A stretch of 60,621 bases of DNA from Amoebophrya sp. A120 (lineage: Eukaryota > Protista > Dinoflagellata). The notes under the pieces are model-generated. The model was not told the DNA's origin. It searched no databases and saw nothing but the letters and a program-made list of their open reading frames with translations. The stretch covers positions 1 through 60,621 of the forward strand of contig CAJINV010000026.1 in the NCBI GenBank assembly GCA_905178155.1, read 5' to 3'. The translations under genes and the position numbers were made by a program. Shown piece by piece: positions 33,401 to 56,400 of the stretch; the first letter of the stretch is position 1; the number at the start of each line of letters is the position of its first letter.

Positions 33401-36206
33401 TTTTCTCCTGCATCGCCACCACCCGTGCCACCGCCGCAATAAAGAGCGTGCTCAGTTGGTACTCTTCGCACAGCAAGTTTCCGGTTTCCGGCTGTAATGC
33501 CGCGTGGTCCTCGTTGTACCGAAGCGATGGCTGTGCGAGAAATCGAAAAAAATCCGCGGGAAAAAACTGGCCCTCGTGGTGGTCGAACCAAGTGACAGGA
33601 GGGTAGTTTTTCTTGGGAGGGGCTGCTTCCTGCGTTCCACTTCCTACGCCGAGAATCCTAGTGACAAGAGAGGCGATATTTTTTTCTGCATCCGATAGAA
33701 AACCGCCATGTCATGCAAATCGATGTGCACGCCGCACGAGAACAAGCACAGTCTGAACTCACGTCGCATGTTGCACATGCAGTTGCAGCAAGGCAGAGAT
33801 TATAAATCTGCCTGTGTCTGAGCGCCATATTACCGACTCATTGACTGGCATGACAAACCGTCCTCAGACAAGCAAGGTAGACTTCTGGAAAATATTTGCG
33901 TACAGGCTGTGTGTCTTCATCTAGTTACTTCGACATGGAATGGCGTTTTTTTCTCTGCGACCCATACTCTTCGCACGGCCGGTTCCAATAGGGGACATTC
34001 TTCGTTTTGTCAAACCGTTCCAAATCGATCCCTTCGCGTTCGGCCATCGGCCGCTGGTAGCACTTGAATTGGTCATACTGCTTCCAATACCGCCCGCCTT
34101 CCCGCTCTGACTGCGGCCCGTCTCGTATTCGTGCCGTGACAAGCCCGAGCCCCACGTGGTTGGTGAACACGTAGTCTTCCAAATGCTCCCGAACGAGAAA
34201 CATGTTTGACGCCGCCAGGACGATGTGCGTGATCTTGTCCTCCCCCGTATCAACTGTAAAAATGTCTGGGTCTGGAAGATTCCGGGATTTGTGATGCATA
34301 TTTTGTATGATCCATGCTTCATGTGATGCATAATCTAGCATCACAGACTTTTAGAGGGCTTCCTGATGCCTAGCCCGCATGAGAAATGCCCTCTCCGCGT
34401 AACACAAACTGGACCCCTTTTGCTGGTCACGCAATAGTACACATTTTTTTAGAGTCCAGAGTTAGCATCACAAGTTCCAAACTTCCAGACCCAGACATTT
34501 TTGCATTTGATACCCCGTCTGGTTCAGCAAAATGCCAATATTGCTCACGTGCGCTCGGAGGATCGCGCACTGCCCGTAGCCGACGGAATACCGCTTGCGG
34601 TTGACGATCAGTCGTTTTTGCGTATGGGCGTGCTTTATGCATTGCAAAAGTATCGTACTGCTATAAATGCATTTCAAATTTCGTCAGTGTGAGAGATCAA
34701 ATTTGTAATGCGGACTTACCTTCAGATAAAGATTTGTAATGCATGCCTACAATACGAGAACGATACTTTTGCACAGGATATGCTTGTTGGCGAAGGTCTC
34801 AAGGTTCGTGAACACTTCCTCAGCGCTGTCGGTGTGCATTTTCTGCTTCATCGGTGGATACTTAGAACGGCTGTTTACGTTATGAACTGCAAAAGTATCG
34901 TGAGCACTAGCAGAAGTTGTAGTAATTGCAATACAAATTGACTCAGCATGACAAATGGAATTTGTCATGCGGATTTGCCTTAAGAAAAGGATGTGTAATG
35001 CATAAACGCAATTAGTACGAGTGCGATACTTTTGCAGTGCATATACGTGCAATACCAGCAACGTCGATTTCTCCGTTTTCCGGAGAAAAGAGCGCACGTA
35101 GTCGGTGAGATATTCCGCGTCCTCGTAGACGGCACCGGAAATGCCAAGGCGGAAGTGGTGTAACGGCTCCAGCTGCTCGGGGAAAGGTTTTCCTCTACTA
35201 GGCGAGGGTGATGGGATATCGCAAGAAAAAACTGCTTCACTGTAAACTTGTAATGCAGAAACTGTATCTGAGAAGCGTTTGTCTTGCGACACACGCAAGA
35301 CACTAGATTTTATCTGTGTTTTCCCTTACGAATCTCGCATGGCAAATTTTCTCGGTAATGTAGAACAAACTTGTGATGCAAAACTTGCAAAATCCTTACA
35401 GCGAAACACTTTTTTCGTGCGATATGGGAGACTGGATGATGGGAGACTTGTCCCTCCTGTTCTCGCCGATGCACCAGAAGCTGCTGGTCCGCCGTCAGCT
35501 CCGGAACGACCCTCTCGCGAACCAGTACTACCCGCAGCCACCGTCGCAGCTGCACCTGCTCCAGGTCGTGACACCAGCGGAGGCGAACTGGTGATCTTCC
35601 CTGCACCGTAGAGCAAAAACTTTTCCAGTTCTGTCCGATCAAACTGCATCTTCGCCCTATCAAATGTAAAAGTGTCTGGGTCTGGAAGAGTGCCAGGTTT
35701 GTCATGCACATTTTGCATGACTCCTGATGTCTGTGATGCATGCCCTAGCGTCACAGATTTTGTGAGGGCTTCCTGATGCCTATACCGCATGACAAATGCT
35801 CTTTTCGTGTAGCAAAACTTAGACTCTCTTTGCTGCTCATGCAATTACAGACTTTTTTGTAATCCAAAATGAAAATCAGCATGACAAGTTGGATTCTTCC
35901 AGACCCAGACATTTTTAAGTACATTTGATACGCCCGCTGCAGGTACGACGCCGGCGTTTGAAGGAGGCTTGTCCCATCCGGCGCTGAGGGTGTCAGGGAA
36001 GAAAAGGTCAGGACGACGTCCTTGTTGAGGTAGAAGGAAAGGAGGACGAAAAGAAACACCGTGAAATAATACCGGGTTCTGTGGTGTTTCCTGTCTGACA
36101 AAGCTTCGGCGGCTTTGGTGAAAAGGAAGCGGCAACAGCAGAAGACCCTGCAAACCGCCTTGCAGCACCGGGAACAAGAGCCTGGGCCTGCTGATAGAAG
36201 CGACAT
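30437..36206 (-). CDS. Putative type II membrane glycosyltransferase-like protein; 11 introners
   Basis: One frame from MSLLSAG to VCGLFF* after removing 11 elements plus 5 nt each. It has an N-terminal TM and motifs LVLHVN, IVNRKRY, LRAHVSN, IVLAASNMFLVR, HEGQFFP, CEEY, FLKRMIR. The GT assignment is by resemblance only. Confidence 0.7.
30496..30754. mobile_element. TIR introner, family A
   Basis: Family A TIRs; perfect DR CCGGA. Confidence 0.92.
30797..31110. mobile_element. TIR introner, family A (degenerate)
   Basis: TATGCATATGCAAATA...TATTTGCTGTGCATA; DR TTCTG/TTGAG; frame restored. Confidence 0.75.
31706..31956. mobile_element. TIR introner, family A
   Basis: Family A TIRs; perfect DR CCATT. 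Confidence 0.92.
32144..32430. mobile_element. TIR introner, family A
   Basis: Family A-like TIRs; DR TGCCT/CGCCT. Confidence 0.8.
32516..32739. mobile_element. TIR introner, family E
   Basis: TATGAAAGTGCACAACCCTCCC...GGGAGTTGTGCACTGTCATA; DR GTGGC/GTGGA. Confidence 0.88.
33689..33927. mobile_element. Highly degenerate introner/intron
   Basis: Internal TGTCATGC/GCATGACAA motifs; removal plus 5 nt gives SMSK|KNIAS in frame; TIRs hardly visible. Confidence 0.45.
34248..34512. mobile_element. TIR introner, family A
   Basis: Family A TIRs; perfect DR CCCCG. Confidence 0.93.
34636..34780. mobile_element. TIR introner, family C
   Basis: TGCAAAAGTATCG...CGATACTTTTGCA; perfect DR TGCTT. Confidence 0.92.
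34881..35043. mobile_element. TIR introner, family C
   Basis: Family C TIRs; perfect DR TACGT. Confidence 0.92.
35217..35424. mobile_element. TIR introner, family D
   Basis: TATCGCAAGAAAAAACTG...CACTTTTTTCGTGCGATA; perfect DR TGGGA. Confidence 0.92.
35658..35930. mobile_element. TIR introner, family A (young subfamily)
   Basis: Perfect DR CGCCC; near-identical reverse complement of 56086-56347. Confidence 0.94.
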
Positions 36207-36800
36207 GGTTAAAAAATGACGGTGGCGCAAATGCAAAACGGCTCCGGAGGTGCTAGTGTGGAACTAAGCTATGCATATTTAAGCGGGGCGGCGAGCGTCT
36301 CTTTGGCGTCGGGCATCAGCCAACACCAACAGCAATAGCAAAACATCAACTTTATAAAGTAATTAGATCGATTTCCAACACAAAGATTTTAGCATCTACC
36401 GCTGAAAGTGAAAGTGAAAGCTTCCCCGATGGGTTGCATTGCTTGCGCGGCGCCACCTACGAGAAAAAAAATTCAAGTTTCTCCGAACAAACATTTTGCT
36501 GCGACAAAATCGCCCAGGGAGCAGGCCTCGTCGGCTCGGTCGCTTGTTTATCTTCATTCGTGTGATCGCGCGTAAGTACACTTCACGTTCCTCATCTCTA
36601 CTTATGGCGTTGACGCGTAGAGTTCGTTAGTAGCTCTTGTTCTTCCCGGCTGAAACCGCATTGAGTCAATTCCTCCTCCAAACATTCTAGCATATTCTGC
36701 AGTAGCGCACTGCGAAACTCGACGCATAGCATGCGATGCTCGCAACTGGAATCTCACGGTGTACCAGCACTAGTCGTGGCAGGAGCTGGCACTTTACCGC

Positions 36801-39800
36801 TTAGTTCTCCCACTTGATGCCCCGCTGCATCCTCAAGCGTTTTTCTCCGCAAGACTAGGTCTAAGCAGTCTATCGGCACCGGGTCCATGTTGTAATCGAA
36901 CTTGTTCCCGGTCCAATGCGGCATCTGTGCGATCTATCGCAAGAAAAAACTGTTTCACTGTAAACTTGTAATGCAGAAACTGCATCTCAGAAGTGTTTGT
37001 CTTGCTACACATGCAAGACAGGCGATTTTTAGCTGTGTTTTCCCTTAGGAACCTCGCATGCCAAGTTTTCCCTGTCATGTGTAACGAACTTGTCATGCCA
37101 AACTTGCAAAATCCTTACAGTGAAACACTCTTTTCGTACGATACGATCCAGGGAAGATCTAAAGCGCCGTAGGTACAGGATTTTCGAATGTACTTCCCGT
37201 GGGGCTTATGCAATAAAAATTTGTTCCCGTACTTCTACACGACGCACAAACAAAGTGCATGACAAACTCGCTCCGCCAAACTTTGTCATGCAGAAGCTGC
37301 ATATGCATTTGCACCTGTGCGGGAACGGGATAAAATTTCCTCTGGATAACATTTGGGATTCGCGATGACATTGACCCTTTCCATCAAGTATCAAATGCAA
37401 AAGCATCGCACTCGTACTAATCGCAGTCATGCATTACAAATCTTTTTCTTGAGGCAAATCCGCATTACAAACTTTATTTCTCACGCTGAGGAAATTTGTG
37501 ATGCATTTATACGAGTACGATACTTTTGCACAGGATATCAAGTACGGATCGCTGTTGACGTTGAAGGTGCCGATGAAAGTGGTAAAAAAGCCCTTGTTCT
37601 GGACTACCGCCATCTCGTCGTCGTTCCAGTTGAACAAAAACCGCAAGACGTAGTTGTAGAGAAATTTCACTGGCAGGTATTTCGCCTGCGTTTGCACTTG
37701 GTCGTACGTCTTCGCGTACACAGCCTTCGTCATCGCCCGGTCCTCCCAGTTATACAGATGCGACCTGGATTTCAGCTCCGACAGGTCGTAATCTCTGTGC
37801 GGGTATGCGTTGCAAAAGTGTCTGGGTCATGTGGAAACTTGTGATGCTGGGTGGCGTATCATGAGGAGCCCACAACTGCTGGCTCACCATGACAATTTTC
37901 TGAGCTTCTAGGTGTTGCCTATTTTTCTGCACGACAAACTGCGTTTCTGCGTGACAGAAAACTGGGGCTCTTGTGTAACGTGCATGACACATTTATATTA
38001 CGAGTCATGAAAGACAAAGACAAGCATGACAAAAATGCATCCTTTCAGACCCAGACATATTTGCACTTGATAGCGGGGGGAAGGATCCGGGGACGGTCGG
38101 ATAGTGCCGGATTAAAGTGCCCCAGAAGCTTTCGTCGGATTCGTAGTGGAGTTTGGTCCAGTTCAGAAATTTTTGTACCTGGAAATCCTCTTGCATAAAG
38201 GTAACCGTCACCTTGCTGAGTGCGTAATAGGCCGAACCGGCAAAATATCCACAAAAAAACAACCATCCCCATCCAATTTGTCGTGCAAAGCATGAGCGAC
38301 GTCCTGTGTTTGTGATGCATAAAATGGATGGAGATGGTTGTTTTTTCCTGGATACAAAAACGCCGGTGTCTTTTCCAAACGGACTGCCCCACCAGTCGCG
38401 TCGGCCGTTGCCTCGCTCGGGAGCGGCAGTGTCGTGAAAAATGAAGCTCGTGTCCGTGTAGCTGGTTTCAGTGAAGATTGGCAGATGAAAATTTGAATTC
38501 TAGTATCCCTGGAGAAATTTCTTCCCGTGGACGCAAGAACTGGAGGAATTCTTAATTGGTCATCTCCCTGTAAGTCTAAAACTATACGAAAAGCTACACT
38601 GTAGTATGCCTCTTCGCTATATGCAGACGACCGGGTAAGTAAATCTTTGAGGCCAAGAAGCACCCAACGCAAACTCGCTCTTTTCGCATGCCGCTTTGAG
38701 AGTTCGCAAAAGAACGCGCTCGGAACAGGCAACACAAGTATAATTAGATACCTGTTCTGCGCCCCCGCTTTCGCGATTTCCCTTTCCGCTGCAGATTTTG
38801 ATGCAGCCCCCGACGACGTCTTCAGGAATTTCAGGTGCGAAAAAAACGCTCTCCAGTCCTGGTCCAGCAAATGCGCCTGTTTTTTCTTCTCCGCGCAGAT
38901 TTTCTCCTGCATGCAATTTATCCTAATGAAAAACGTCCCCACCCCAGAGTCAAGATGGGGATTTTGCAACACAAACCTTCAAGTTTTGGGAGCCACGCAT
39001 GACAAATTGCTAGCTGTACTAGTGTAGTGCAGTTTGGAACAGGGAAGTCGCATTACAAATCCATCTGCTTATCCTGTTTACAGCATTACAAGTTCCAAAG
39101 CACGATCGGGAATGCCTATCATGGGGATGCGCATTACAAACGCTCTTGCGCTTGCAGATCTCCATTACAACTCTGGGGTGGGGATGCTTTTACACAGGAT
39201 ACAATTCCGCTCTGCATCGATGGCCCTCTGCACGAAGTCCTTCACCCGCCAGGTTTCCCGGACGCGCCACAGCTTGTTTTCCTCCACGTTCATATCCACA
39301 CTGTAGGTCTAATGAGAGTGCACACGTCCCCCTCCTCCTCATTTGTCAGTATTGCATGAACAGCAATACAAACACCAGCACACGTGGTGCCTGTGCATGA
39401 CAAATTCATTCGCCTAGTGTGGTACTGTTTGGGCTTTCGGCAACATCTGTCATGCAAAGAGTGCCATAGGGAAGCACTTGGATTAGGTATTTTGCATGAC
39501 AAATGAGGGGGAGGGGGAGCAGCTGTGCACTCTCATATGTCTCCGCCCGCCCGTTTAACGCTTTCAGGTCCCGAACTTTCTGCAAGTTCGTTTTCAGGGG
39601 TATTACAATGAAAAATGCCTCCTCCTCATATCAAAACGGAAATCTGTGATGCAGATTTGTGGTCACAAATCAGCTTTGTGATGCTAGAAGGCAAAAGATG
39701 CGGACCGTAGTGCTGCCTAGCGTGGGAAAGCCTTGCAGCTCCAGGATGACAGGAGGCAACGAACTGGAAGTGGAAAGCAGCATGACAGATTACCTGCAAT

Positions 39801-42535
39801 TTAGGCCGCAGCTTCGTTTCTTGGCCTTCTAGCAATACAAGTCCATTTGTGTACTCAAATACAGCATCACAAATTCGCGCATCTTCCGTTTCCGATATGG
39901 GGTGGGGGCTTTTTTCAGTTTGATAAGGGGGTAGTCCTGTCCACAGAGGTTCAGCACATACTTGTAGTCGAACTTCCGCAAATCCTGCAGACACCGCATG
40001 TCCGCCTCCACGCGCGTCCAACTCACGTAGTAAACGCCAACCGGGTCTGATGCGAGAAACGTGTTGCGCTTTTGATGTTCCATCTGGTGAAGCTCCTGCA
40101 GGTCGTTCTTGGCGTCAAAATTGGTGGTGCTTCTACCCGGGTCGTAGTAGTTCGCCGCTATCCTGTGCAAAAGTATCGTATTCGTACTAATTGCATTTAT
40201 GCATTACAAATCTTTTTGTTAAGGCAAATCCGCATTACAAATTCAATTTGTAATGCTAATCCAATTTGTAATGCAATTTATACTAGTACGATGCTTTTGC
40301 AATTCATAGCCGCTAAATTCAAGCAGTGGACCAGTGCTCTCACCTGATTCCGTATCCTGAGCAAAAACGTCCCCACCCCATAGTTGTCATGTGGATTTGC
40401 ATCCACAGAAACATTTGTAATGCGGGTCCCCATGAGAGGCATATGCATATCTAGTCGCGTTTTGGGATTTCTAATGCTGTAAGCAGGATGAGCAGACGGA
40501 TTTGCGATGCGGCTGTCCTTACGAACCCGCCCTACCCTACGCACTGCAACTTGTCATGCGCGGCCCCCAAAACTTCTAGATTTGTGTTGGTAAGTTTCCA
40601 ACTTGACCATGGGATGAGGACGGTTTTACGCAGGATATTCCGGAACTCTTCGTCGGCCTTGATGTCCACGTGTACGCAGTATATCAGATGTAAAAATGTC
40701 TGGGTCTGGAAGAATGCAACCTGTCATGCTAAATCTGAAGCATGCAAAAATCTGTGTTGCATGATTACCAAACGTCGTCCAGTTTTGACCAAGTCGGGAG
40801 GGAGTTTCTCATGCAGGATAGGCATGACAGAGATCGCGCAGAATCTGTCATGCTAGGTCCCGCACTCCAGACCTCATGGGTCATACAAAAGCTGCATGAC
40901 AAGTCGCGCACTCTTCCAGACCCAGACACTTTTACATTTGATACAGTAGTAGTTCTGACGGTGCCAGATGGCGCGCAACAGCCTCTCGACCTGGCCAATG
41001 TGCTTGTGAACGAGCAGAATGTAAGCTAAGGTATGGCTTGCTCAAGCGTTACAATCTCAAACGTTACGATAGAATCTGGATTTTGTCTTGCATGAAGACA
41101 ATGAGGAACGCACACAGGATTGAGCTTTTCGCAATACAAATCTCGCCGGGTTGTAGGTGGGTTTGGGGCTCCAAAACTTGTCATGCGCAATCCTTTGGAA
41201 GGAGGCTAGCTTATGCGCTCTTGGATCACAGATTTCCATATTCTATTGTAATGGTTGAGATTGCAACAGCTGAGCGGGTCATATAAGGGGAACTGCTTTT
41301 CTTCCTCGGAGAACGGGGAATCGAGATAGTAGTATCCTGAGAAAAAAGTGTTACAGTTACACACTCTGATGGCAGACAAGCAAGACAGACAAACTCTGTC
41401 ATGCAGGAAACGCTTGCCAACCTCATTTCATTCGTGTTTTCCCCTATAGTCTGCGCATCACAGGTTTGATTTGCCATGTCGAGCAACTTTGTGATGCAGA
41501 AAATCCAACAAATGTGTAACGGTAACACTTTTTTCTCGCGATAAGTAGCCGCGGTTCTTGACCCAGTCGAAGCACTGCTGTTTGACAGTGTGGGTGGAGA
41601 GAGCACTCCCAGGATTGGAATTTGTGATGCTCGTGATGACATCGGTGAGAAAACTCAGGTCGAGAGGAGAGCTGTCAACATGTTCAGCAGGGGGTCGCAT
41701 GGCAGAGGACATTGGTCTTGCGCCGGACGAAGATAACGACGAAACAGCTTTTTCCCTAGCTTGCCTCCGATAGCTTTCCAATTTGCTCGTGAAAGCCGTA
41801 TTTTTCTCCAGCTGAGTGTGGGAGTCTCAGGAGTGAAATCGTCAGAGTTGAAATAACTTGCAATGCATAAAATCGATACCAGTTGGAAGCCCAATTTCCA
41901 AGCGGCACATGACAAATTTCGGCACCGTCTAAACCCAGTTTGTCATGCTGTTTAGGGATAGAAGGCGTCTTTTGTCATGCTACTTTAGCAGCTCTATCGC
42001 AGACCCCAAATAACAGGCGGACTGTCGGCCTCACTTGCCATCCCTGCAAGAGAGGCGCGTCATGTCTTGCAATTTATGCATGAGAAATCATTTCAACTTT
42101 GACGATTTCAATCCTGACACTTCCATACTGAGCAGTATGGGATAAAAAATTCGCCTCCGTGACTGGCACTTCCGTGAGCGGCCTGCAGATCTCCGTGTAG
42201 AAAGGATTTTTGTCGAATAGCGACGCTGTTGTACTAGCGGCAGCCGAAGATGATGGTTTCTTACCCGCTGGCTTCGACGCACCGATGAAATCTTCCTTCG
42301 CCTTTATCACCGCTTCGTTGTCGTGCGCCCCCGCGCGGAAAAGCTTGTGGAAGCGACTTCCGGAGGGGAGTGGCGCTTCGCGGTTGTCAGCATCTTCGGT
42401 GCTGAGCCGAGAAGTGAGAATGTGGAAACAAGAGATAATGGTGAAAATCAGGCAGAACCGCTTCCGGACAGGTCGGTGCTCGGCGGAGAAGAAGAGCGCT
42501 GTGACTGCGGAGGCGGATGCGGCACAGCGCGGCAT
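36801..42535 (-). CDS. Core-2/I-branching beta-1,6-N-acetylglucosaminyltransferase (GT14, GCNT-like); at least 14 introners
   Basis: Spliced motifs FPLAYILLVHK, RLLRAIWHRQNYYCVHVD, YVSWTRVEADMRC, KYVLNLCGQDYPLKTN, FAGSAYYALS, ESDESFWGT, CHGKYIRKSCTYGALDL and NKFD follow the GCNT order. One junction (~38500-38750) is unresolved. Confidence 0.92.
36935..37143. mobile_element. TIR introner, family D
   Basis: Family D TIRs; perfect DR CGATC. Confidence 0.93.
37207..37348. mobile_element. TIR introner, family J
   Basis: TATGCAATAAAAATTT...AAATTTCCTCTGGATA; DR lost; 5-nt rule gives NPKC|HGKY. Confidence 0.8.
37389..37537. mobile_element. TIR introner, family C
   Basis: Family C TIRs; perfect DR TCAAG. 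Confidence 0.92.
37804..38072. mobile_element. TIR introner, family A
   Basis: Family A TIRs; perfect DR GCGGG. Confidence 0.92.
38246..38354. mobile_element. Short TIR introner, family G (109 bp)
   Basis: TATCCACAAAAAAACAACCATCCCCATCCA...TGGATGGAGATGGTTGTTTTTTCCTGGATA; perfect DR CAAAA. Confidence 0.92.
38919..39201. mobile_element. TIR introner, family B
   Basis: Family B TIRs; perfect DR CAATT. Confidence 0.92.
39311..39537. mobile_element. TIR introner, family E
   Basis: Family E TIRs; DR GGTCT/TGTCT. Confidence 0.9.
39601..39925. mobile_element. TIR introner, family F
   Basis: TATTACAATGAAAAATGCCTCCTCCTCATATC...GATATGGGGTGGGGGCTTTTTTCAGTTTGATA; perfect DR AGGGG; splits DYPL|KTN. Confidence 0.92.
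40159..40308. mobile_element. TIR introner, family C
   Basis: Family C TIRs; perfect DR GCCGC. Confidence 0.92.
40353..40637. mobile_element. TIR introner, family B
   Basis: Family B TIRs; perfect DR TTCCG. Confidence 0.92.
40682..40943. mobile_element. TIR introner, family A
   Basis: Family A TIRs; perfect DR CAGTA; splits YYC|VHVD. Confidence 0.94.
41032..41283. mobile_element. TIR introner, family H
   Basis: TATGGCTTGCTCAAGCGTTACAATCTCAA...TTGAGATTGCAACAGCTGAGCGGGTCATA; perfect DR TAAGG; splits FPL|AY. Confidence 0.9.
41333..41543. mobile_element. TIR introner, family D-like
   Basis: TATCCTGAGAAAAAAGTGTTAC...GTAACACTTTTTTCTCGCGATA; perfect DR AGTAG. Confidence 0.92.
41817..42127. mobile_element. 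TIR introner, family I
   Basis: Long TIR (GAAATCGTCAGAGTTGAAAT...ATTTCAACTTTGACGATTTC); perfect DR CTGAG; related to 53485-53791. Confidence 0.9.
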
Positions 42536-42645
42536 GATCGTTCTTGCTGACGCGGCGCACTAGCTCGCGGTCGTGACCACCTCCAGGCTATACTTGCGAC
42601 GAACGTGTCACCTTAGATATTTATAAGTGCCGTCGTGTCTGCCCC

Positions 42646-44157: not shown

Positions 44158-44629
44158 TTGATACAACGAGGACTTCTCCTAGCGGCCCATGCTTTTCTTT
44201 TCCAGACACTCGGACTCCTTCAACATGGTACTACATTCCGTCTCTCATGCAGATGCAGATTTCCGTGCCTGCTTTGAATTTGATGCGCACTGATCTGTCA
44301 TCCACCGAATCCAACCCAGATCGGAAAATTAGCAAAGCAACTAGAGCCAAGATGATGGAACGCGGTGGGGGTAGTTGTCACGGAAGTCGGGACAGAAGGT
44401 TTGTATCAGTTGGGTGTGAAAGCTTGCCATGCGTATGGAACTTCCATGGGGTTGTCGTCTTTCAGGAGTTTCCGTGATTTTTTTCCGCGCTGCTGCATTT
44501 AGCGACACAATTCTGGCGGCCCCCCAGGCGTCGCGATGAGCCTACTTGGGGGGGGGGCTGGGGGGGTATGTAAAATTAGGCGCATGGCGCCGCATCAAGC
44601 AGGTGCGGAAACCTACCACAGAACTCCGA

Positions 44630-44742
44630 CAAGGAGTTGCTTGTCAAGGAGTTGCTTGTCAAGGAGTTGCTTGCCAAGGAGTTGCTTGTCAAGGAGTTGC
44701 TTGTCAAGGAGTTGCTTGTCAAGGAGTTGCTTGTCAAGGAGT
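44630..44742. repeat. 15-bp tandem repeat (CAAGGAGTTGCTTGT), about 7.5 copies
   Basis: Read directly from the sequence. Confidence 0.97.
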
Positions 44743-45452
44743 GCGACCCGAGTGCGACCCGAGTGCGACCCGAGTGCGACCCGAGTGCGACCCGAGTGCG
44801 ACCCGAGTGCGACCCGAGTGCGACCCGAGTGCGACCCGAGTGCGACCCGAGTGCGACCCGAGTGCGACCCGAGTGCGACCCGAGTGCGACCCGAGTGCGA
44901 CCCGAGTGCGACCCGAGTGCGACCCGAGTGCGACCCGAGTGCGACCCGAGTGCGACCCGAGTGCGACCCGAGTGCGACCCGAGTGCGACCCGAGTGCGAC
45001 CCGAGTGCGACCCGAGTGCGACCCGAGTGCGACCCGAGTGCGACCCGAGTGCGACCCGAGTGCGACCCGAGTGCGACCCGAGTGCGACCCGAGTGCGACC
45101 CGAGTGCGACCCGAGTGCGACCCGAGTGCGACCCGAGTGCGACCCGAGTGCGACCCGAGTGCGACCCGAGTGCGACCCGAGTGCGACCCGAGTGCGACCC
45201 GAGTGCGACCCGAGTGCGACCCGAGTGCGACCCGAGTGCGACCCGAGTGCGACCCGAGTGCGACCCGAGTGCGACCCGAGTGCGACCCGAGTGCGACCCG
45301 AGTGCGACCCGAGTGCGACCCGAGTGCGACCCGAGTGCGACCCGAGTGCGACCCGAGTGCGACCCGAGTGCGACCCGAGTGCCACCCGAGTGCCACCCGA
45401 GTGCCACCCGAGTGCCACCCGAGTGCCACCCGAGTGCCACCCGAGTGCCACC
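44739..45452. repeat. 11-bp minisatellite: (GAGTGCGACCC) x~58, then (GAGTGCCACCC) x~7
   Basis: Read directly; variant switch at 45377. Confidence 0.98.
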
Positions 45453-45553
45453 AATGCAAAACTTGAAGAGTCTGCGCATTTGATACAGCGAGGACCTCTT
45501 CTAGCAGCTCATACTTTTCTTTTCCAGACACTCCGCGTTCAGCATGGTACTAC
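45453..45553 (-). repeat. Diverged duplicate of the 5' region of the 42646-44157 gene
   Basis: Matches ~44131-44234 (GAGTCTGCGCATTTGATACA...TTTCCAGACACTC...CATGGTACTAC). Confidence 0.8.
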
Positions 45554-46629: not shown

Positions 46630-47185
46630 TTAAGCAGCCGCCGCCAACTTTTCGATGAATTCCTTCAATTTCGGCTCCGACGCGCCCTCAAACTTGTCAA
46701 ACTTCTGTCCGTCCTTGAAAAAGATGAAGGTTGGCATGCAGTTGATGTCGCACGCTTCCGCGGTGTCGCCGTTCTCATCGACGTCGACCTGGATATTTTT
46801 TGTTCAGGGATTTTTAGGCTTGCGTATAATGTGTTGTACGCATGACAAAATGAAAATCGTGGCATAGATATAGGCGGTTTTCGCATGACAAACTCACTAC
46901 AGCGTCTTCATCTGCATCATGCACATAGAACAGTTATGCCTACCGTGCATGACAGAATCGACTACACGCGCTCGTGCGTTTTGTTTCCAGCAACACAAAC
47001 TCAATTCCAGGTTGTATCAATACCTTGCAGAACGCCACGTTGGTGTATTGTTCCGCCATTTTGACGAAGACCGGGCCGATCATCTGGCACGGCCCGCACC
47101 AAGTTGCCGTGAAGTCCACAGCGACGAGTTTGTTGCCGGCGAGGAAGGAGTCGAACTCCTCTTTAGTCGCGAGCTGCTTCACCAT
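46630..47185 (-). CDS. TRX: Thioredoxin (106 aa, two exons)
   Basis: VDFTATWCGPC active site; FCK|VDVDE joined across GT-AG intron 46789-47023; MPTFIFFKDG motif. Confidence 0.96.
46789..47023 (-). other. GT-AG intron with introner relics
   Basis: CAAG|GTATTG...ATATCCAG|G; near-DR CCTGG/CCTTG; several GCATGACA motifs inside. Confidence 0.85.
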
Positions 47186-47837
47186 TTTGAACAAAAACTG
47201 TTCTTCCGTTGCTGACACTACGCTAGTTTTGTCTTGCTGCTTGATGCAGAACGTTGATTTTTCCCACAGCTAATATCTTCAAGTTCGAAATTGTTTTTAA
47301 TCACTTTTGATTTTGTCGAAAACGGAAACAGAGCTATGATCTGAACTTTGCTTTCACGAGGCCTGATGCTGGTTGCAGTGGATGTTGGGTTGGTACGTGG
47401 CGGGGGTTCTTGACACAAATGGTAGCTCAAACAAGCGGTGTGCACATTGAAAAAACAAAATGTAGTGACCACTTGGTCACGACGTCCCATATCTACACGA
47501 AATTCCTGAGGATCTTGTCTTGCATCGTTGTTGCCGATTGGCAATGGAGGCACCACCCAGTTGTAATTGTATTAGTGCTTTACAGCAACTCCATTGTCTT
47601 CTGCACATCAATTTGAGATTAAGTAGGGATCCTCTGCGCAGCTTGCTTTAACGGCCTATAATTACTGGTTTCATCTTGCAATTCGCACAACTCGAACACC
47701 ATCTTATGCACCTTTTTCTAGGTCTCCAGCTAACTGACCATCCTTTTCATCCCTAGGTAGGGGCACTGTAGGAATCTAGGTGAGCGGCCGCTGGGTTTGT
47801 TCTCCATACCATGCAGAATTCCCCAGGTAGGCGCATT

Positions 47838-49926
47838 CTGCATGGTAGGGAGAACAAACCCAGCCAACCTATAGGCTCTCAGTGGCCTATCTATAGGCAA
47901 AACTTATTCAGCGTAGCACGCGGCGAAGAAAAATTGTTTTCCAACCAAGATTTTTCCTGGGGCCCTCGCAACTTTTTTAAATTCATCTTTGCCCGACCTG
48001 CATGCCGATGCCTTCGATACGAAGTTACCCTATCTATAGGCCCTCGGAGGCCTATAGGTGAACGGCTTTACCATCGTGATTGCGTTTTGTGTGAATTTGT
48101 TTCAGTTTTTTCTTTTTAAATCAAGCTTTGCGAAAAATTTCGAATCCTGCATGGCAAGGAGAACAAACCCAGCCAGCCTATAGGCTCTCAGAGGCCTATC
48201 TATAGGCAAAATTTATTCAGCGTAGCACGCGGCGAAGAAAAATTGTCTTGCGCGCAAGTTTTTTGCTGAGGCCCTCGCAACTTTTTCAATTTCATCTTTG
48301 CCCGACCTGCATGCTGATGCCCTCGATACGAAGTTGCCCTATCTATAGGCCTTCGGAGGCCTATAGGTGAACGGCGGTGAACGGCTATAACACCGTGATT
48401 GCGTTTTGCATGAACTCATTACAGTTTTTTCTTTTCAAGTCAAGCTTTGACAAAAATATCGAATCCTGCATGGCATGGAGAACAAACCCAGTCAACCTAT
48501 AGGGTCTCAGAGGCCTATCTATAGGCAAAATTTATTCAGCGTAGCACGCGGCGAAGAAAAATTGCCTTCCATGCAAGTTTTTTGCGGAGGCCGTCGCAGC
48601 TTTTTCAATTTTATCTTTGCACGACCTGCATGCTGATGCCTTCGATACGAGGTTGCCCTATCTATAGGCCCTCGGAGGCCTATAGGTGAACGGCTATACC
48701 ACCGTGGTTGCGTTTTGCGTGAACTCATTGCAGTTTTATTTTCCTTTCCAACTCAAGCTTTGAGAAACATAACGAATCCTGCATGGCATGGAGAAGAAAC
48801 CCAGCCAACCTATAGGCTCTCAGAGGCCTATCTATAGGCAAAATCCATTCAGCGTAGCACGCGGCGAAGAAAAATCGCACTCCTTGCAACTTTTTTGCTG
48901 AGGCCCTCGCGACTTTTTCAATTTCTTCTTTGCCCGACCTGCATGCTGATGCCTTCGATACGAAGTTGCCCTATCTATAGACCCTCGGAGGCCTATAGGT
49001 GAACGGCTATACCGCCGTGATTGCGTTTTGCATGAACTCACATCAGTTTTTTCTTTCCAACTCAAGCTTTGAGAAAAATATCGAATCCTGCATGGAATGG
49101 AGAAGAAACCCAGCCAACCTATAGGCTCTCAGAGGCCTGTCTATAGGCAAAATTTATTCAGCATAGCACGCGGTGAAGAAAAATTGCCTTCCGCGCAAGT
49201 TTTTTGCTGAGGCCCTCGCAACTTTTTCAATTTCTTCTTTGCCCGACCTGCATGCTGATGCCTTCGATACGAAGTTGCCCTATCTATAGGCCCTCGGAGG
49301 CCTATAGGTGAACGGCTATACCGCCGCGATTGCGTTTTGCATGAACTCACTTCAGTTTTTTCTTTCCAAATCAAGCTTTGACCGAATCCTGCATGGCATG
49401 GAGAAGAAACCCAGCCAACCTATAATAGGCTTTCAGAGGCCTATCTGTAGGCAAAATTTATTCAGCGTAGCACGCGGCGAAGACAAATTGCCTTCCGCGC
49501 AAGTTTTTTGCTGAGGCCCTCGCAACTTTTTCAATTTCTGCTTTGCCCGACCTGCATGCTGATGCCTTCGATACGAAGTTGCCCTATCTATAGGCCCTCG
49601 GAGGCCTATAGGTGAACGGCAATACTATCGCGATCGCGTTTTGCGTGAATTCATTTAAGTTTTTGCTTTCAAAGTCAAGCTTTGATAAAACATATCGGAT
49701 TCCGCATGGTATGGAGAACAAACCCACCCAACCTGTAGACTCTCAGAGGCCTATCTATAGGCAAAATTTATTCAGCATAACATGCGGCGACGAAAAATTC
49801 TCTTGCGCGCGAGTTTTTTTCTGAGGCCCTCACATTTTTTTTAACTTTATCTGCGCACGACCCGCATGCTGATGCCTTCGATATTAAGTTGCCCTATCTA
49901 CAGGCTCTCGAACGCCTATAGGTGAA
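47838..49926. repeat. ~310-bp tandem satellite, 7 copies
   Basis: Unit starts near 47838, 48147, 48466, 48779, 49088, 49389 and 49703; rich in CCTATAGG/CCTATCTATAGG. Confidence 0.95.
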
Positions 49927-50233
49927 AGGCTGCACCCCCGTGGGAGCGCTAGCGTTTGCTTTAATTGCATTGCAGAATTCCAGTGGCGAGCTGAACGCAG
50001 TAAACAAGTTCAGTGCCGACAAGTGAATATGCATTCAAAATAAATACGCTCTGGCAATACAAAAAGTAATCATAGATAGCACCTTAGTGTGTGCGTTGTT
50101 AAGCATTCGCAAGCAGTGCCAGTGCCAATGCTGTCATACATTTTTAAGCTACCTGAAGTGATGTGAGTCCGAGTATTCGTGTGAAATTGTTGTGCAGAGA
50201 TGTGTACATTTTTATCTTACGGCGTGCTCCGTA

Positions 50234-50330
50234 CTGATTGATTGAGATTGTTCATCGTGCACGGACGATTCCTCGAAATTTTTCTGATTGATTGAGATTG
50301 TTCATCGTGCATGGACGATTCCTCGAAATT
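50234..50330. repeat. 50-bp-period duplication
   Basis: CTGATTGATTGAGATTGTTCATCGTGCA.GGACGATTCCTCGAAATT occurs twice. Confidence 0.85.
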
Positions 50331-50369
50331 ACTATTACTATCTATTATATTCATGCGAAAATATTGCTC

Positions 50370-50850
50370 TAGAGAGGGTAAACGAGAGGTGGCAGGGAGG
50401 TCAAAAAGAGGTCAAAAGAGGCACAAAAGAGGTCGACAGAGGTGGAGAGGTGGCGCGGGAGGTAATTCGAGAGGGTGGCCGAGAGGGGGCGCGAGTATAG
50501 CCCGCCGAACCGGTCGCCCTTTAGGGCCGCTAAGCGGCACGGAGGTGGCCGAGAGGTAAAAAAGAGGGCAAGCGAGAGGTGGACAGAGGTGCCGAGAGGT
50601 TGCGCGAATAAGGGGAGACCTCTCGCGCACCCTCTGGGCCACCTCTCGGCCACCTTTGTAGACCTCTACCGGCGAGTATAGCCGGATAATTAGCAAAACC
50701 TCTCAGAGGAGGTGAGAAAGAGGGTCTGCGAGAGGGGTAAAAAAACCCGAATCCACCCGGCACAGGCCTGATTTTTTTGCGGCCCTTTCATGCAAAAGCC
50801 CGAACCCTCTCGCGCCACCCTCTCGCGCACCCTCTCGCGCCACCCCTTCG
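50370..50850. repeat. AGAGG/CCTCT-rich low-complexity inverted repeat region
   Basis: Blocks of GAGAGG followed by blocks of CCTCTC. Confidence 0.7.
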
Positions 50851-51159
50851 CGCCAACACTTTTATTTCCCCGGGAAATCAGGTGGGCGGGCGCGGGGCGG
50901 TGATAAACAAAGAGCAGCGCCGGCCTCTGTCTGATTCTTTCGGCACGCACCTACGCCGGGGCGGCATCTCTTCGCCCCCAAAGTTTACTGCAGCTGCCCC
51001 CTGCGCATAGCGCCTAAAGGCGCGGAAAGCGCGCAGGAGGCCTTGCGGGTTGACCTCGCGCAAAATGGCGCCTGAAGTTTCCTCGGTCCGTCACGCTGTG
51101 CCCGATCCGCAAATAGTCAAACCCCAGCACAACAGCCTTGCGCTCCGGCGGTAGCCGGA

Positions 51160-53110
51160 GCATGGCTGGTTAATATATTTATATATGGAAGAAAACGGGG
51201 CTGGAGAGGTTCCGGTAGAGGTTGGGGAGAGGTTTCGTAGAGGTAAAATAGAGGTTGGGAGAGGTAAAGTAGAGGGTCGGCCAAAGTGAGAGGGTCGGGG
51301 AGAGGTAAAACGAGAGGTAACGGAGAGGGTCGGGAGAGGGTGAGCCGTATAGACGCCCTTAAAGCGCGGCTATACGCGCGCAGAGGTAGGGTAGAGGTTG
51401 GGGAGAGGTCAAGTAGAGGGTAGGGGAAGAGGGTGTAGAGGGTCGGAGAGGGTGCGTAGTATAGGGCGACCCTCTAGGCGACCCTCTACCGCGACCCTCT
51501 CCGGGAACCTCTATTTTACCTCTCGGCGGACCCTCTCGGCACCTCTCCGACCCTCTCCCGGACCCTCTCCGGGAACCTCTCCGACCCTCTCCTGGACCCT
51601 CTCTGAACCTCTCCCGAACCCTCTCCCCGACCCTCTCCCGGACCCTCTCGTGGACCACCTCCAGGAGCACAGCCTGCCCGCTGACTTGTCTGCGCGCGGC
51701 GCCCCCTCAAGAAGCTCGCTAGGGCGCAACGACCGGCGGGCATTGTTTTCAATTTCAGATCAGAGCGGCCGTTCAAAGTGCGTGCGCCGCTCTGCGTCCC
51801 CCAGAGGGGGCGCGGCGCCCCGCCTTAACCTGGTCGGCCACCTAGGGTGGCCGCAACTTCTTTCCCACAACGCCCGCGCGCGCTGGCAGCAGGTGCGTCG
51901 CCCTTGTGGCGTCTTGAACGTTGGCGCCCGGAAATAGTTTCCTGCGCGCATTTTCCCACGGCGCGCAGCTACTAAGGCCGGGCATGGTGCCCGCCCATGC
52001 CGAAACATGGGTCGGGCTCGGGCTTTTTTTTTTTGGTTGTGTAGCGGCGCGCAGCGATTCAATGCTGGCGCCACCTTTCCCACCGGAACACCTCCACCGA
52101 ACAGCCCCCTCCCCGGCGGCCTCCGCCGGGGGGTGGCTGGTATTTATATATGGAAGAAAACGCGGCTGGAGAGGGTACAATAGAGGTTTGGTAGAGGTTC
52201 GGGAGAGGTAAAATAGAGGGTCGGAGAGGTAAAATAGAGGGTCGGACAAAATGAGAGGGTCGGGGAGAGGTAAAACGAGAGGTAAAGGAGAGGGTCGGGA
52301 GAGGGTGAGCCGTATATACGCCCTTAAAGCGGGGCTATACGCGCGCAGAGGTAGGGTAGAGGTTGGGGAGAGGTCAAATAGAGGGTAGGGGAAGAGGGTG
52401 TAGAGGGTCGGAGAGGGTGCATAGTATAGGGCGACCCTCTAGGCGACCCTCTACCGCGAACCTCTCAGGAAGCCTCTATTTTACCTCTCGCCGGACCCTC
52501 TCGGGACCTCTCCGACCCTCTCCCGGACCCTCTCCGGGACCCTCTCCGGGACCCTCTCCGACCCTCTCCCGGACCCTCTCTGAACCTCTCCCGGACCCTC
52601 TCCGGGACCCTCTCCCGGACCCTCTCGCGGACCACCTCCAGGAGCACAACCCGCCCACTTGTCTGCGCGCGGCGCCTCCCAAAGAAGCTCGCTAGGGCGG
52701 AGCGATCGGCTGGCAGTGTTTTCGCTTTCAGATCAGAGCGGCCGTTCAAAGTGCGTGCGCCGCTCTGCGTCCCCCAGAGGGGGCGCGGCGCCCCGCCTTA
52801 ACCTGGTCGGCCACCTAGGGTGGCCGCAACTTCTTTCCCACAGCGCCCGCGCGCACTGGCAGCAGGTGCGTCGCCCTTGTGGCGTCTTGACCGTTGGCGC
52901 ACGGAAATAGTTTCCGGCGCGCATCTTCCCACGGCGCGCAGCTACTAAGGCCGGGCAGGGTGCCCGCCCAAGCCGGAACATGGGCCGGGCTCTTTTTCTT
53001 TGGTTGTGAAGCGGCGCGCAGCGACTCAATGCTGGCGCCACCTTCCCCACCGGAACACCTCCACCGAGCAGCCCCCTCCCCGGCGGCCTTCGCCGGGGGG
53101 TGGCTGGTTA
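51160..53110. repeat. ~970-bp direct repeat x2, each with an AGAGG block then a CCTCT block
   Basis: Units begin GGCTGG..TATTTATATATGGAAGAAAAC near 51164 and 52135; the GC-rich tails align. Confidence 0.92.
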
Positions 53111-53430
53111 TCATTATGTACAAAAATCTGCTGTCGTTTCATTAAATCTGGCACGTTTTCAATGGAGACTACGGGAAGATCTCGCGAAAGCAAAAGGCTA
53201 ATAGTTTCTTACATCGTTAATTGTGCGCACGATTTCACTTCACTTTTTAGTATCGAGCAGCGATTTGCTGAAATTCGTCACCGTTATGCATTTGTAGGTC
53301 GCTTTTCATTTTCAAGCGTGGTAAAAGTGGCGTAGTAGTACGGCTTCCAAATCTCCCCGGGACGACAGCGTACCCGTAGTCGTGATCGAGCACTACGTAT
53401 CAAAGTGCTGTAGTCTGCCCCGTCTACTCA

Positions 53431-56400
53431 TCACAACCACGACGCCCAACCCACGTACATCTGCTGCAGGTTTCTCAGATCGCGTATGGATGTGTCAGAG
53501 TTGAAATCGACAAAGTTGAAATAATTTGCGATGCATAAAATGCAACCCGCAAAGCGCCTGTCTTGCAGAGTAGGCAAGGGAGGCATATTGCAAGCCTGTT
53601 GAGGGGTAGAAATAGAGCTGCTAAAGTAGCACGACAAAAGGCGTCTTCCTTACACAAACAGCATTACAAACTGGATTTAGGCACCGCCAAAACTTGTCAT
53701 GCGCCACTTGAAAACTGTGCTCCAACTGGCATCCATTTTATGCATGGCAAACTATTTCAACTCTGACGATTTCAAACCTGACGCTTCCATATCGCGGGCC
53801 GCTTGGATAATCGCGTCAACCTGTCGGGGAATTTCCAACGGCACCCCCTTGTCCCGGCCGGCCTCACCCGGACTGTTCTTGCTCTTGTCGTCCGGCTCGG
53901 GCTCGCGGGGCGGGAAAACCTAGGTGAGCGACGTAGGGAGCATGAGCAAGTTGCTGCAAATTCAGATCATTATCATACCGGCATACTTATCTATTGGGCT
54001 GACGTGCCGCGTCGTGGCTTTGAAAAGTTCACTGCTTGCGGCCGCAGTCAGAAACAGACGAAGCGGCCGGGAAGTTAGAAATCTTCGGGGAGGGGCTGAC
54101 CGTCCCCGGCGAGAAGCTGCAAGCCCATGGCGCAAAGCTGACCGCCCTCGGCGAGAGGATTCCAAACCGAAGGCGAGAAGTCGGAAACCAAGCGGGCGAG
54201 AAGTTGAAAGCACTTGGCGAGAAGTCGAAAGCACTTGGCGAGAAGTTGACCAACTCCGGCGAGAGGTCGAAAGCCCTCGGCGAAAAGCTGACCACCCCCG
54301 GCGAGAAGTCGAAGGCAATTGGCGAGAAGTCGGCAACCAAGCGGGCGAGAACGAAGTTGAAAGCACACGGCGAGAAGTCGCAAGCCCTTGGCGAGAAGTC
54401 GAAACCCCTTGGCGAGAAGTTGACCACCTCCGGCGAGAAGTCCAAAGCGCTCGGCGAGAAGTTGACCACCCTCGGCGAGGGGTCGAAAGCAATTGGCGAG
54501 AAGTCGGCAAGCAAGCGAGCGAGAAGGCGAAAGCACTTGGCGAGAAGTCGAAAGCCCTTGGCGAGAAGTCGAAACCCCTCGGCGAGAAGTTGACCACCTC
54601 CGGCGAGAAATCGAAAGCCCTCGGCGAGAAGTTGACCACCCCCGCCCGGCGAGAAGTCGAAAGCCGTTGGCGAGAAGTCGGCAACCAAGCGGGCGAGAAT
54701 TTGAAAGGACTTGGCGAGAAGTCGAAAGCCCTTGGCGAGAAGTCGAAAGCCCTTGGCGAGAATGAAGTCGAAGGCCGTTGGCGAGAAGTCGGAAACCAAG
54801 CAAGCGAGAAGTTGCAAGCACTTGGCGAGAAGTCGGAAGCCCTTGGCGAGAAGTCGAAAGCCCTTGGCGAGATGAAGTGGACCACCTCCGGCGAGAAGTC
54901 GAAAGCCCTCGGCGAGAAGGCAGAAATCGAGCGGGCAAGAAGTTGACAAACCCTACTATAGAAACCATACGGCCCCAACAATCTCAGCCCATACAGTCTA
55001 GCTGTGCAGTTTCTTCCGCGAGCGCGCCGGCTCTTCTAAGTTGCGCGCAACTACTTCTTCTCTGGAGCAAAGCACGCGACGAGCAACTATGCCTCACACC
55101 AAGGGAGGTGGTGCCCGAGCTGGTTGGGAATTGCCCTCCGCTGGTTGCGGTTGCCCTGGCTGGGCAATTGCCCTCCGCGGACGCAGCTTGTCTTCATGGA
55201 AAGCTTTTGTAGATAGCCCCGGAGCCCAATTCCCGCAGCCACTTGCGGACATTCTCTGTGGCAGAAGCGATAACGAAGACGGACAATTACTCTCAGGCCA
55301 CGAATCGCGAGTATCCCTCTGAGACGTTTTTTGGCGCGCCGAGGCGCTTTTCGGCGCGCCGCTGCCCAAAAGGCGCCAAGTCTGGCGCTTTTTGGCGCGC
55401 GGCGCGCCGAAAAGCGCCGCAGAGGGAATCTTGCGACCCGCGGCCCTGAGAAAAGGTCGGAGAGAATTGCGGCTTCACTGCAGTTTCTGTCGCAGAGAAT
55501 TCCGAAGGCGGCCCCAGAGAATGGGGCCCGGGGCTTCTCCGAAAGCCATCGCGCAGAAACAAGGGTGGGCAATTCAGAGAGCGAGGGCAAGCGCGACTGC
55601 GCACCGCTGCGCGCGGTTCGGAAAGTCTTAGAACGCTTTCCCGGCCCTTTGCTCTTCTGTTTTTTCGCTAATTGCTTCTGGGAGTGCCCGAACTATACTG
55701 CCACAGGCTGGGCATTTTCCAGAGTGGAAAGGGTTGAGATTGCCACTCGCGGCACGGTCTTTTTCCAATCCAGGAAGGTTTTTTTTGGCTCGAGAAATTT
55801 CCACAGAGGACCGTGAGCGACGTGCGAAACAAAAATGAGCGACTTTGGAGCTCTGCACCCCCCGACAATACGTGCCTTCTTACGCGACGAGCAACTATGC
55901 CTCACACCAAGGGACGAGGTGTTGCCCAAGCGCCCCACTAAAGTACCTCCTTCAAAAAATCGAAAAACAATGCAAGAACCCTGTACAACTTATAGATACC
56001 TTCGCCATGACAGAATCCTTTGCGCTGTTGTCTCTTTTCGTCTCCTTGTCCGTCCGCCAGGTATCGTACGTGACGTGGCCGTTCATATCAACTGTAAAAG
56101 TGTCTGGGTCTGGAAGAATCCAACTTGTCATGCTGATTTTGGATTCTAAAAAAATCTGTATTGCATGAGCAGCAAAGAGAGTCCAAGTCTTGCTACACGG
56201 AAAGAGCATTTTTGATGCGGTATAGGCATCAGGAAGCCCTCACGAAATTTGTGATGCTAGGGCATGCATCACAGACATCAGGAGTGATGCAAAATGTGCA
56301 TGACAAACCCGGCAATCTTCCAGACCCAGACGTTTTTACATTTGATAGTTCATCTTGTTGATCAACTCCTGCACGGTCCGCTCGGGCGCGAAGCCCTTGT

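What the first reader, a model, noticed from the sequence alone, without database searches (positions are those of the whole stretch)
35658..56347. The same element families occur in both orientations within same-strand genes
Seen: 35658-35930 is the near-identical reverse complement of 56086-56347, and both host genes are on the minus strand. The same holds for family B (3236 vs 58072), C (11743/40159 vs 34636/37389), D (19139 vs 35217/36935) and J (37207 vs 43462). Inference: removal cannot depend on a strand-specific branch point or pyrimidine tract. The signal must lie in the symmetric TIRs and motifs, i.e. an RNA hairpin or DNA-bound protein.
Basis: partly seen in the sequence, partly recalled or inferred. 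Interest (0 to 1): 0.8.

Follow-up and report, generated by a model that had tools for sequence, protein, structure and literature searches.

The report
Introns that work in either direction
In the marine parasite Amoebophrya, already-described transposon-derived introns sit in genes equally often in either direction and mostly lack the usual GT-AG ends; their mirror-image ends likely fold together and let a relaxed splicing machine cut at a fixed distance.

Summary
The window is Amoebophrya sp. A120 DNA. The repeats are its published TAT introners (PMC7789003). The headline holds: 35658 vs 56086 are 89% reverse complements, and orientation relative to the host strand is 134:134 over window and related contigs. 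Copy 37389 was mis-oriented and family J is unsupported.

Both orientations are removed: 31 of 31 elements in three public proteins, and 11 RNA-guessed contig joints. Only 21 of 289 could be GY-AG; no strand-specific pyrimidine tract or branch motif was found.

Removal still reads direction. The only cut register fitting all informative junctions is 1 nt before TAT and 4 nt after ATA. The 5' TA changed in 2 of 289 copies, the 3' TA in 18. Inverted ends give both orientations the same signals, so a branch point is not excluded.

Best model (0.55): a relaxed spliceosome reads N-UA and cuts 3' by distance from the terminal stem. RNA pairing is unproven (G-U 334, A-C 320). The scan noted a similar position-set 3' cut in another genome (unchecked).

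The parts
35658..35930 (-). Family A introner, orientation -1, TSD CGCCC; inferred intron 35654-35931
   Evidence: junction peptide in public protein P0001; no RNA joint shown
56086..56347 (-). Family A introner, orientation +1, TSD GTTCA; 89% reverse complement of 35658
   Evidence: removal restores a 573-codon frame and retention gives a stop
30440..36206 (-). Host gene of P0001 (1015 aa, no Pfam family) with 11 elements, family A in both orientations (30496, 32144 vs 31706, 34248, 35658)
36757..42535 (-). Core-2/I-branching glycosyltransferase gene (P0002, 745 aa) with 14 elements and 1 GT-AG intron
   Evidence: Pfam PF02485; 745/745 identity; 12 joints in run X2
55955..60392 (-). PIKK (ATR-like) kinase C-terminal region with 10 elements; family A in both orientations (56086, 57785, 58749, 59565 vs 57092, 57444)
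   Evidence: frame restoration; orientation; the kinase name is recalled from motifs, not from a call
37804..38072 (-). Family A introner, orientation -1, skipped in an RNA-guessed contig
   Evidence: joint 37798>38073
40682..40943 (-). Family A introner, orientation +1, skipped in an RNA-guessed contig of the same gene
   Evidence: joint 40676>40944; fold z -12.1
37207..37348 (-). Element with decayed TSD that fixes the register: intron 37203-37349 = 1 nt + element + 4 nt
   Evidence: joint 37202>37350 with 0 ambiguous letters; P0002 allows k 0 or 1
39311..39537 (-). Family 3 introner (opposite to 32516 and 56400); its joint requires k of 1 or more
   Evidence: joint 39306>39539
3236..3512 (-). 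Family B introner, orientation +1, in an acidic minus-strand frame
58072..58352 (-). Family B introner, orientation -1
38919..39201 (-). Family B introner, orientation +1 (opposite to 40353 in the same gene)
   Evidence: no joint shown
40353..40637 (-). Family B introner, orientation -1
   Evidence: joint 40346>40637
34636..34780 (-). Family C introner, orientation -1 (as is 34881-35043)
37389..37537 (-). Family C introner, orientation +1 (with 11743-11896 and 40159-40308)
19139..19367 (-). Family D introner, orientation +1, in the gene of P0003
35217..35424 (-). Family D introner, orientation -1 (as is 36935-37143, joint)
18636..18951 (-). Element with a one-mismatch TSD; the public protein allows only k 0 or 1
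32144..32430 (-). Family A element with a one-mismatch TSD; the public protein excludes k 0
33689..33966 (-). Relic element: begins GTATGG and has a CAG one base before the cut, yet GT-AG removal is out of frame and element+5 matches P0001
38462..38751 (-). Canonical GT-AG intron beginning GTATCT, the same +2 to +5 letters as the commonest element ends

Best explanation
These are Amoebophrya A120 TAT introners, short inverted-repeat elements with 5-bp target duplications that lie in exons equally often in both orientations and are removed with one duplication copy, most likely by a relaxed U2-type spliceosome that reads N-U-A at the 5' end and likely sets the 3' cut by distance from a predicted terminal stem rather than by AG. 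SHOWN: the anatomy, the 50:50 orientation, removal of element+5 nt in both orientations, and no sense-strand GT/AG/pyrimidine/branch enrichment. SHOWN WITH SMALL NUMBERS: the intron is N + TAT...ATA + NNNN in transcript direction; the 5' TA is more constrained than the 3' TA; TIR positions 8-13 stay conserved at both ends. INFERRED: the two ends pair or are bridged from about position 8 inward, which collapses a ~260-nt intron to about 8 free nt at the donor and 11 at the acceptor. N-UAU(C/G) would act as +1 to +5 of a donor like the canonical GUAUC. The branch adenosine would be one that both orientations present: the first A of the terminal AUA (-7), or the A of GCAUNACA about 40-51 nt upstream. 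Insertion by an unidentified cut-and-paste transposase preferring C-N-N-N-G is also inferred.
For: Removal: 31 of 31 elements in the genes of P0001-P0003 give peptides found in the public proteins (20 of the 51 elements checked lie in genes with no fetched protein). 11 of 14 elements of one gene are skipped in X2 contigs together with a GT-AG intron. Orientation: family A 74:74, C 18:21, B 8:10, D 4:3; pooled 134:134, and same-family pairs within 3 kb 49:49. Register: 9 informative junctions share only k=1; RNA joints give k=1 (37207) and k of 1 or more (39311). All nine predominant A120 sites in Farhat Table S4 begin N-T. Donor-like constraint: 5' TA changed in 2 of 289 vs 3' TA in 18 of 289; loci alone 1 vs 11, p=0.006. 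This is stable across five strand thresholds and independent of element orientation; the interior mutation spectrum is strand-symmetric. k=1 is the GT-AG register when the TSD is NNAGG, and the canonical intron starts GTATCT. Farhat found U2, U4, U5, U6 and most spliceosomal proteins, but no U1, in A120. Ruler: relic 33689 ignores an AG one base away. TIR 8-13 changed at 0.038 vs 0.061 expected in decayed-TSD copies, p=0.003. The ends are poorly complementary at positions 4-7 (0.36-0.71) and well at 9-13 (0.81-0.97). A branch A at position 10 of 15 is reported for Stentor (PMC9505925).
Against: Nothing here shows spliceosome involvement or a lariat. No selection marks either branch candidate: motif A 7/175 vs mirror 9/163; terminal A-7 1 vs mirror 5 of 289, not significant; yUnAy at -7 116 sense vs 124 antisense. 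No G-U over A-C excess in the stem (334 vs 320; private changes 180 vs 163). No enrichment of G at +1 or AG at the 3' end (101 vs 98; 23 vs 16), which a spliceosome might be expected to favour. TAT and ATA are 96-98% complementary and would have to be unpaired. The codon-likelihood test of register was inconclusive. Position 1 alone gives p=0.002 among 45 positions tested. The RNA joints come from single contigs of one run that is RNA only by guess.
Confidence: 0.55

Rival explanations
1. A separate, non-spliceosomal RNA pathway, as proposed for euglenid nonconventional introns: a protein nuclease/ligase recognises the terminal stem and cuts it with a 1-nt/4-nt stagger, releasing a circle or linear RNA, with no branch point.
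For: No branch, GT or AG signal. The ends pair by 10 bp or more in 287 of 289 sense and 289 of 289 antisense folds, with z -7.5 and -12.1. The 3' cut is at a fixed position. U1 was not found in A120. Euglenid introns with inverted ends are reported to leave as circles (PMC11282704 section 6; PMC12501133 passages).
Against: The register coincides with GU at +1/+2, and the conserved 5' letters are the donor's +2U/+3A. The canonical intron here has the same +2 to +5 letters. No G-U signal in the stem.
Confidence: 0.3
2. A protein that binds the symmetric TG(C/T)AAA and GCATGACA motifs on DNA or nascent RNA (a domesticated transposase or similar) bridges the ends and directs co-transcriptional removal; base pairing is incidental.
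For: The motifs are shared by all families and stay conserved symmetrically in older copies (TIR 8-13 p=0.003; motif p=0.048). There is no wobble bias, as expected if letters and not pairs are read.
Against: No transposase family was found in 82 long frames, and longer elements carry no transposase-sized frame. It does not by itself explain the 5' polarity. It can coexist with the best explanation.
Confidence: 0.1
3. The elements are excised from DNA (IES-like) or are absent in the expressed strain, so the joints are not splicing.
For: X2 is RNA only by guess, and no DNA control run was laid.
Against: The same contigs skip a GT-AG intron. Five of five junctions able to separate k=1 from its mirror k=4 exclude k=4, and the terminal constraint follows the transcript strand. 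Farhat report RNA-seq support for such introns.
Confidence: 0.04

Closest known systems
Amoebophrya A120 introner elements (Farhat et al. 2021, PMC7789003; sections 10-12 and 16 read, supplement searched, figures not seen)
   Same: Same organism (three proteins 100% identical). TAT + 7 nt + AAA inverted repeats, 3-5 nt direct repeats, about 240 nt, non-canonical ends, proposed hairpin.
   Different: The parts read leave the splice position variable or unknown and do not discuss element orientation ('strand' 0 hits; the 'orientation' passages shown concern genes). Added here: the 50:50 orientation, one register (k=1) and the 5' TA constraint.
Either-orientation introners of Polarella glacialis and Aureococcus (bioRxiv 10.1101/2020.10.14.339549, passages; Huff 2016 not held, not seen)
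   Same: TSD-making elements that create introns in either orientation.
   Different: Those recruit GT/GC/GA donors and AG-type acceptors and show an orientation bias. Here 268 of 289 have no GY-AG register, and there is no bias.
Fritillaria borealis non-canonical introns (seen only through review PMC11282704)
   Same: MITE-derived, with TIR and TSD, non-GT-AG, removed by a modified U2 spliceosome.
   Different: Favoured ends (AG-AC, AG-AT) and a TAC target. Here the TSD letters at the cuts are free.
Euglenid nonconventional introns (PMC12501133 passages; PMC11282704)
   Same: Inverted ends bring the splice sites together with an asymmetric overhang; direct repeats; probable MITE origin.
   Different: Different motifs (CAG/CTG), reported circular products and rare hybrids with GT-AG. 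Here GT-NN and NT-AG hybrids occur at chance frequency; the product is unknown.

Membership tests
Amoebophrya A120 introner elements | Occurs in the A120 genome | tested here: met
   P0001-P0003 are named Amoebophrya sp. A120 and are 100% identical
Amoebophrya A120 introner elements | Terminal inverted repeat TAT + 7 variable nt + AAA | tested here: met
Amoebophrya A120 introner elements | Direct repeat of 3-5 nt at the boundaries | tested here: met
   31 of 50 have a perfect 5-bp repeat
Amoebophrya A120 introner elements | Repeated families removed from transcripts at mostly non-GT-AG ends | tested here: met
Non-autonomous TIR DNA transposon (MITE) | TIRs, constant-length TSD, no coding frame, dispersed copies | tested here: met
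Non-autonomous TIR DNA transposon (MITE) | Cognate autonomous element or transposase | tested here: inconclusive
   None in 606 kb of loci or in 82 frames; no whole genome is held
Canonical U2 (GT/GC-AG) intron | GY...AG ends | tested here: not met
   21 of 289 in any register
Canonical U2 (GT/GC-AG) intron | Sense-specific branch point and pyrimidine tract | tested here: not met
   symmetric candidates are not excluded
Spliceosomal intron (any ends) | Lariat intermediate and U2/U5/U6 dependence | not testable with these tools
   needs lariat sequencing or inhibition
Euglenid-type nonconventional intron | Terminal RNA stem required for removal | tested here: inconclusive
   stem predicted; no wobble signal
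Euglenid-type nonconventional intron | Excised as a full-length circle | not testable with these tools
   no raw RNA reads covering these exons

The most novel reading that the evidence does not exclude
A120 runs a U1-less spliceosome with a two-letter code and a ruler. Any inserted TAT...ATA element, in either orientation and at any target, is a complete intron, because its paired ends collapse it to a ~19-nt mini-intron read as N-UA, branched at the first A of the terminal AUA and cut 4 nt beyond it with no G(+1) or AG. Splicing would then fully neutralise a DNA transposon, which would explain the roughly 30,000 copies reported.
Probability: 0.3. Interest if true: 0.85.

Novelty: already known. 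Interest (0 to 1): 0.5.

Why it matters
The elements are published, but how they are spliced is an open question (PMC7789003 section 16). Three rules found here narrow it: unbiased orientation, a single 1-nt/4-nt register, and a conserved 5' UA with free +1, -2 and -1 letters. They predict exact intron ends for about 30,000 introns whose borders were called variable, which would help annotation. They also name two candidate branch adenosines for lariat sequencing. If the spliceosome does it, this is a natural spliceosome that has dropped both G(+1) and AG; if not, it is a second splicing pathway outside euglenids. I did not find these rules in print. Figures of PMC7789003, Huff 2016, Henriet 2019 and the journal version of Roy 2023 were not seen.

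Tried and rejected
No whole genome is held, so no genome-wide count was possible.

Raw RNA runs X9-X11 hit only short parts of elements, mostly at 90-95% identity, and no exons. Splicing efficiency per orientation could therefore not be measured. No listed holder is on record as RNA. There is no read or contig evidence for the ten junctions of the kinase gene, including 56086, and no DNA control was laid.

The viral-contig scan found 0 matches. No transposase was found among 82 frames. The one long TAT element read in full looks like a nested insertion; the others have frames of at most 137 codons, apart from an 8-kb chance pairing.

Tests that came out null or inconclusive:
- GCATNACA as a strand-specific branch site: not supported.
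- G-U wobble tests: null, with one sub-range (positions 21-30, loci) at 97 vs 70, p=0.04 uncorrected.
- k-mer strand scan: nothing beyond multiple testing (best p=3e-4 of 605).
- Codon-likelihood register test: inconclusive.
- Frame restoration alone fixes only the frame: removal of element+2, +5 or +8 all keep four of five frames, and +5 or +8 the fifth.

Alternative explanations for the terminal asymmetry were rejected. Transcription-linked mutation bias: A>G 0.0541 vs T>C 0.0534. G-U tolerance: positions 2 and 3 run against it.

Full report
WHAT THE WINDOW IS. A eukaryotic, 50% GC stretch whose element-bearing genes run on the minus strand (one host, at 53485, is uncertain). Three exon queries each returned one protein, 100% identical and labelled Amoebophrya sp. 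A120. I curated 50 elements of 109-373 nt covering 20.9% of the window; 31 of 50 are flanked by a perfect 5-bp direct repeat. They begin TAT and end ATA, with TG(C/T)AAA-like cores and internal TGTNATGC/GCATNACA motifs. This is the A120 introner of Farhat et al. (PMC7789003 sections 10-12 and 16).

THE OBSERVATION. Orientation was judged on interiors with 35 nt trimmed from each end. 35658 vs 56086 are opposite (0.89), as are 3236 vs 58072 (0.83) and 19139 vs 35217/36935. Family J has no interior signal.

WIDER COUNT. One metagenome scan with a family A end gave 155 loci, 606 kb with overlaps. The best matches to window elements are 82-93% identical, so these come from a close relative, and family A is over-sampled. 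A strand-blind detector recovered 47 of 50 window elements, 359 non-redundant elements in the loci, and 0 in 40 reversed loci. Four elements at locus edges were dropped. Host strand was called for 240 of 355 locus elements and 49 of 50 window elements with a codon model trained on the window, so the window calls are not independent of it; adjacent locus calls agreed 128 of 128. Orientation: A 74:74, C 18:21, B 8:10, family 3 7:7, D 4:3, pooled 134:134.

BOTH ORIENTATIONS ARE REMOVED. Removing element+5 nt gives minus-strand frames of 753, 573, 419, 637 and 866 codons over 15, 10, 5, 5 and 4 cuts. Keeping any single one gives a stop in 36 of 39 cases. All 31 elements in the genes of P0001-P0003 yield junction peptides present in those public proteins; these are annotations, not reads. 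In run X2 (contigs, RNA by guess), 11 of the 14 elements of the glycosyltransferase gene and its GT-AG intron are skipped, each in one contig of depth about 8. Three further rows are cross-element artefacts and 15 rows were not shown. The skipped set includes family A in both orientations (37804, 40682). No joint was shown for 35658, 38919, 41333 or 41817. The kinase gene holding 56086 rests on frame restoration alone.

NO CONVENTIONAL STRAND-SPECIFIC SIGNALS. Only 21 of 289 have GY-AG in any register. GT and AG are equally frequent on both strands, and the target preference C-N-N-N-G is symmetric. Pyrimidine fraction (0.527 vs 0.521), YTRAY (29 vs 33), folding energy (-91.8 vs -91.7) and k-mers show no strand difference. 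GCATNACA lies within 70 nt of the 3' end in 161 of 289, and its mirror lies near the 5' end in 157; no motif column is more conserved on one strand.

BUT REMOVAL HAS POLARITY. Where the two TSD copies have diverged, the cut can be placed. With k the number of TSD letters taken before TAT, nine junctions allow: 18636 k 0-1; 37207 0-1; 19501 0-2; 20467 and 30797 0-3; 20813, 32516 and 33689 0-4; 32144 1-5. Only k=1 fits all. The RNA joints give exactly k=1 at 37207 and k of 1 or more at 39311. Five of five junctions that can separate k=1 from its mirror k=4 exclude k=4. Farhat's nine predominant A120 sites all begin N-T. The intron is therefore N-TAT...ATA-NNNN. The first two TIR letters changed in 2 of 289 copies at the 5' end and in 18 of 289 at the 3' end. 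I first saw this in the window (1 vs 7, p=0.07), and it repeated in the loci (1 vs 11, p=0.006). It holds across strand thresholds and for both element orientations. It is not explained by mutation bias or by wobble. The third letter runs the other way (5 vs 1, not significant). These two letters are +2U and +3A of a spliceosomal donor (established knowledge), and the window's canonical intron starts GTATCT. Relic 33689 is cut one base past a CAG; GT-AG removal would break the frame of P0001 (this depends on a seven-A run being correct).

SYMMETRIC SIGNALS. In 83 copies with decayed TSDs, background change rose from 0.066 to 0.096, but TIR positions 8-13 rose only from 0.031 to 0.038 (0.061 expected, p=0.003) and the motif from 0.026 to 0.041 (0.056 expected, p=0.048). 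This suggests selection after insertion. The additive model and the detector's preference for intact ends are caveats. The ends fold together in nearly all copies on both strands, but any inverted repeat does. The RNA-specific test, G-U over A-C, was null (334 vs 320), so hairpin versus protein bridge is undecided.

MECHANISM. Orientation does not matter because an inverted-repeat element presents the same 5' end and the same 3'-proximal letters either way. I favour a relaxed spliceosome (0.55) over a separate hairpin nuclease/ligase (0.30), a protein bridge as the main signal (0.10) and DNA-level loss (0.04). Positions 4-7 are poorly complementary, which would leave about 8 nt free at the donor and 11 at the acceptor. 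A branch A at -7 is geometrically comparable to Stentor's (position 10 of 15), but no selection on it was shown.

NOVELTY. The elements are known, and either-orientation introners are known from Polarella and Aureococcus, with conventional-type sites and an orientation bias. The unbiased orientation, single register and 5' UA constraint were not found in the texts I could see. An unchecked scan note on another genome (e1-7135795) describes a position-set 3' cut after a hairpin.

PAPERS SEEN. PMC7789003: abstract, passages, sections 10-12 and 16, supplement passages and Table S4 rows; no figures. PMC11282704: passages and section 6. PMC9860276: passages and section 7. PMC12130899, bioRxiv 2020.10.14.339549, PMC13326754, PMC12501133, PMC12005148, PMC9505925: passages only. 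Huff 2016 and Henriet 2019: not seen. Supplements of the bioRxiv preprint were not seen and may bear on orientation counts in other species.

Noticed in passing
window 33689-33966: Decayed element with a GT start and a CAG one base before the cut; only element+5 removal matches the public protein.
   Followed up: yes
window 37389-37537 vs 40159-40308: Interiors run the same way but the outer seven letters are swapped, which suggests ends exchange between copies.
   Followed up: partly
window about 46790-47020: An apparent GT-AG intron in a thioredoxin-like gene (name recalled from the motif) holds three GCATGACA motifs; possibly an old element turned canonical.
   Followed up: no
window 56400-56647: An element whose TSD (CAAGG on the sense strand) makes it a GT-AG intron at k=1; 9 of 289 are like this.
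   Followed up: partly
window 60394-60621: Family A copy cut by the window end, 94% identical to 56086.
   Followed up: no
window 8640-8942: Family A-like element with a decayed TSD found by the detector; host not worked out.
   Followed up: no
window 44580-45452, 47832-49943, 51176-53108, 54097-54919: Tandem arrays and a ~965-bp duplication unrelated to the TAT elements; 50334-52890 has matches in L019, L020 and L068.
   Followed up: no
window 25483-29494: Two element-free minus-strand frames (330 and 1005 codons) with shared repeats and no Pfam hit.
   Followed up: partly
L019:505-1608, L027:632-1465, L057:3862-4492: Long TAT elements with perfect TSDs; L019 looks like a nested insertion and none has a transposase-sized frame.
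   Followed up: partly
all strand-called elements: Codon phase of the TSD is skewed 142:89:58, probably through the C-N-N-N-G target preference.
   Followed up: no
window 34920-34970, 38929-38961, 40681-40769: Raw RNA reads of runs X9 and X11 match only these short parts of elements, with other flanks, so related elements occur in transcripts of another strain.
   Followed up: no
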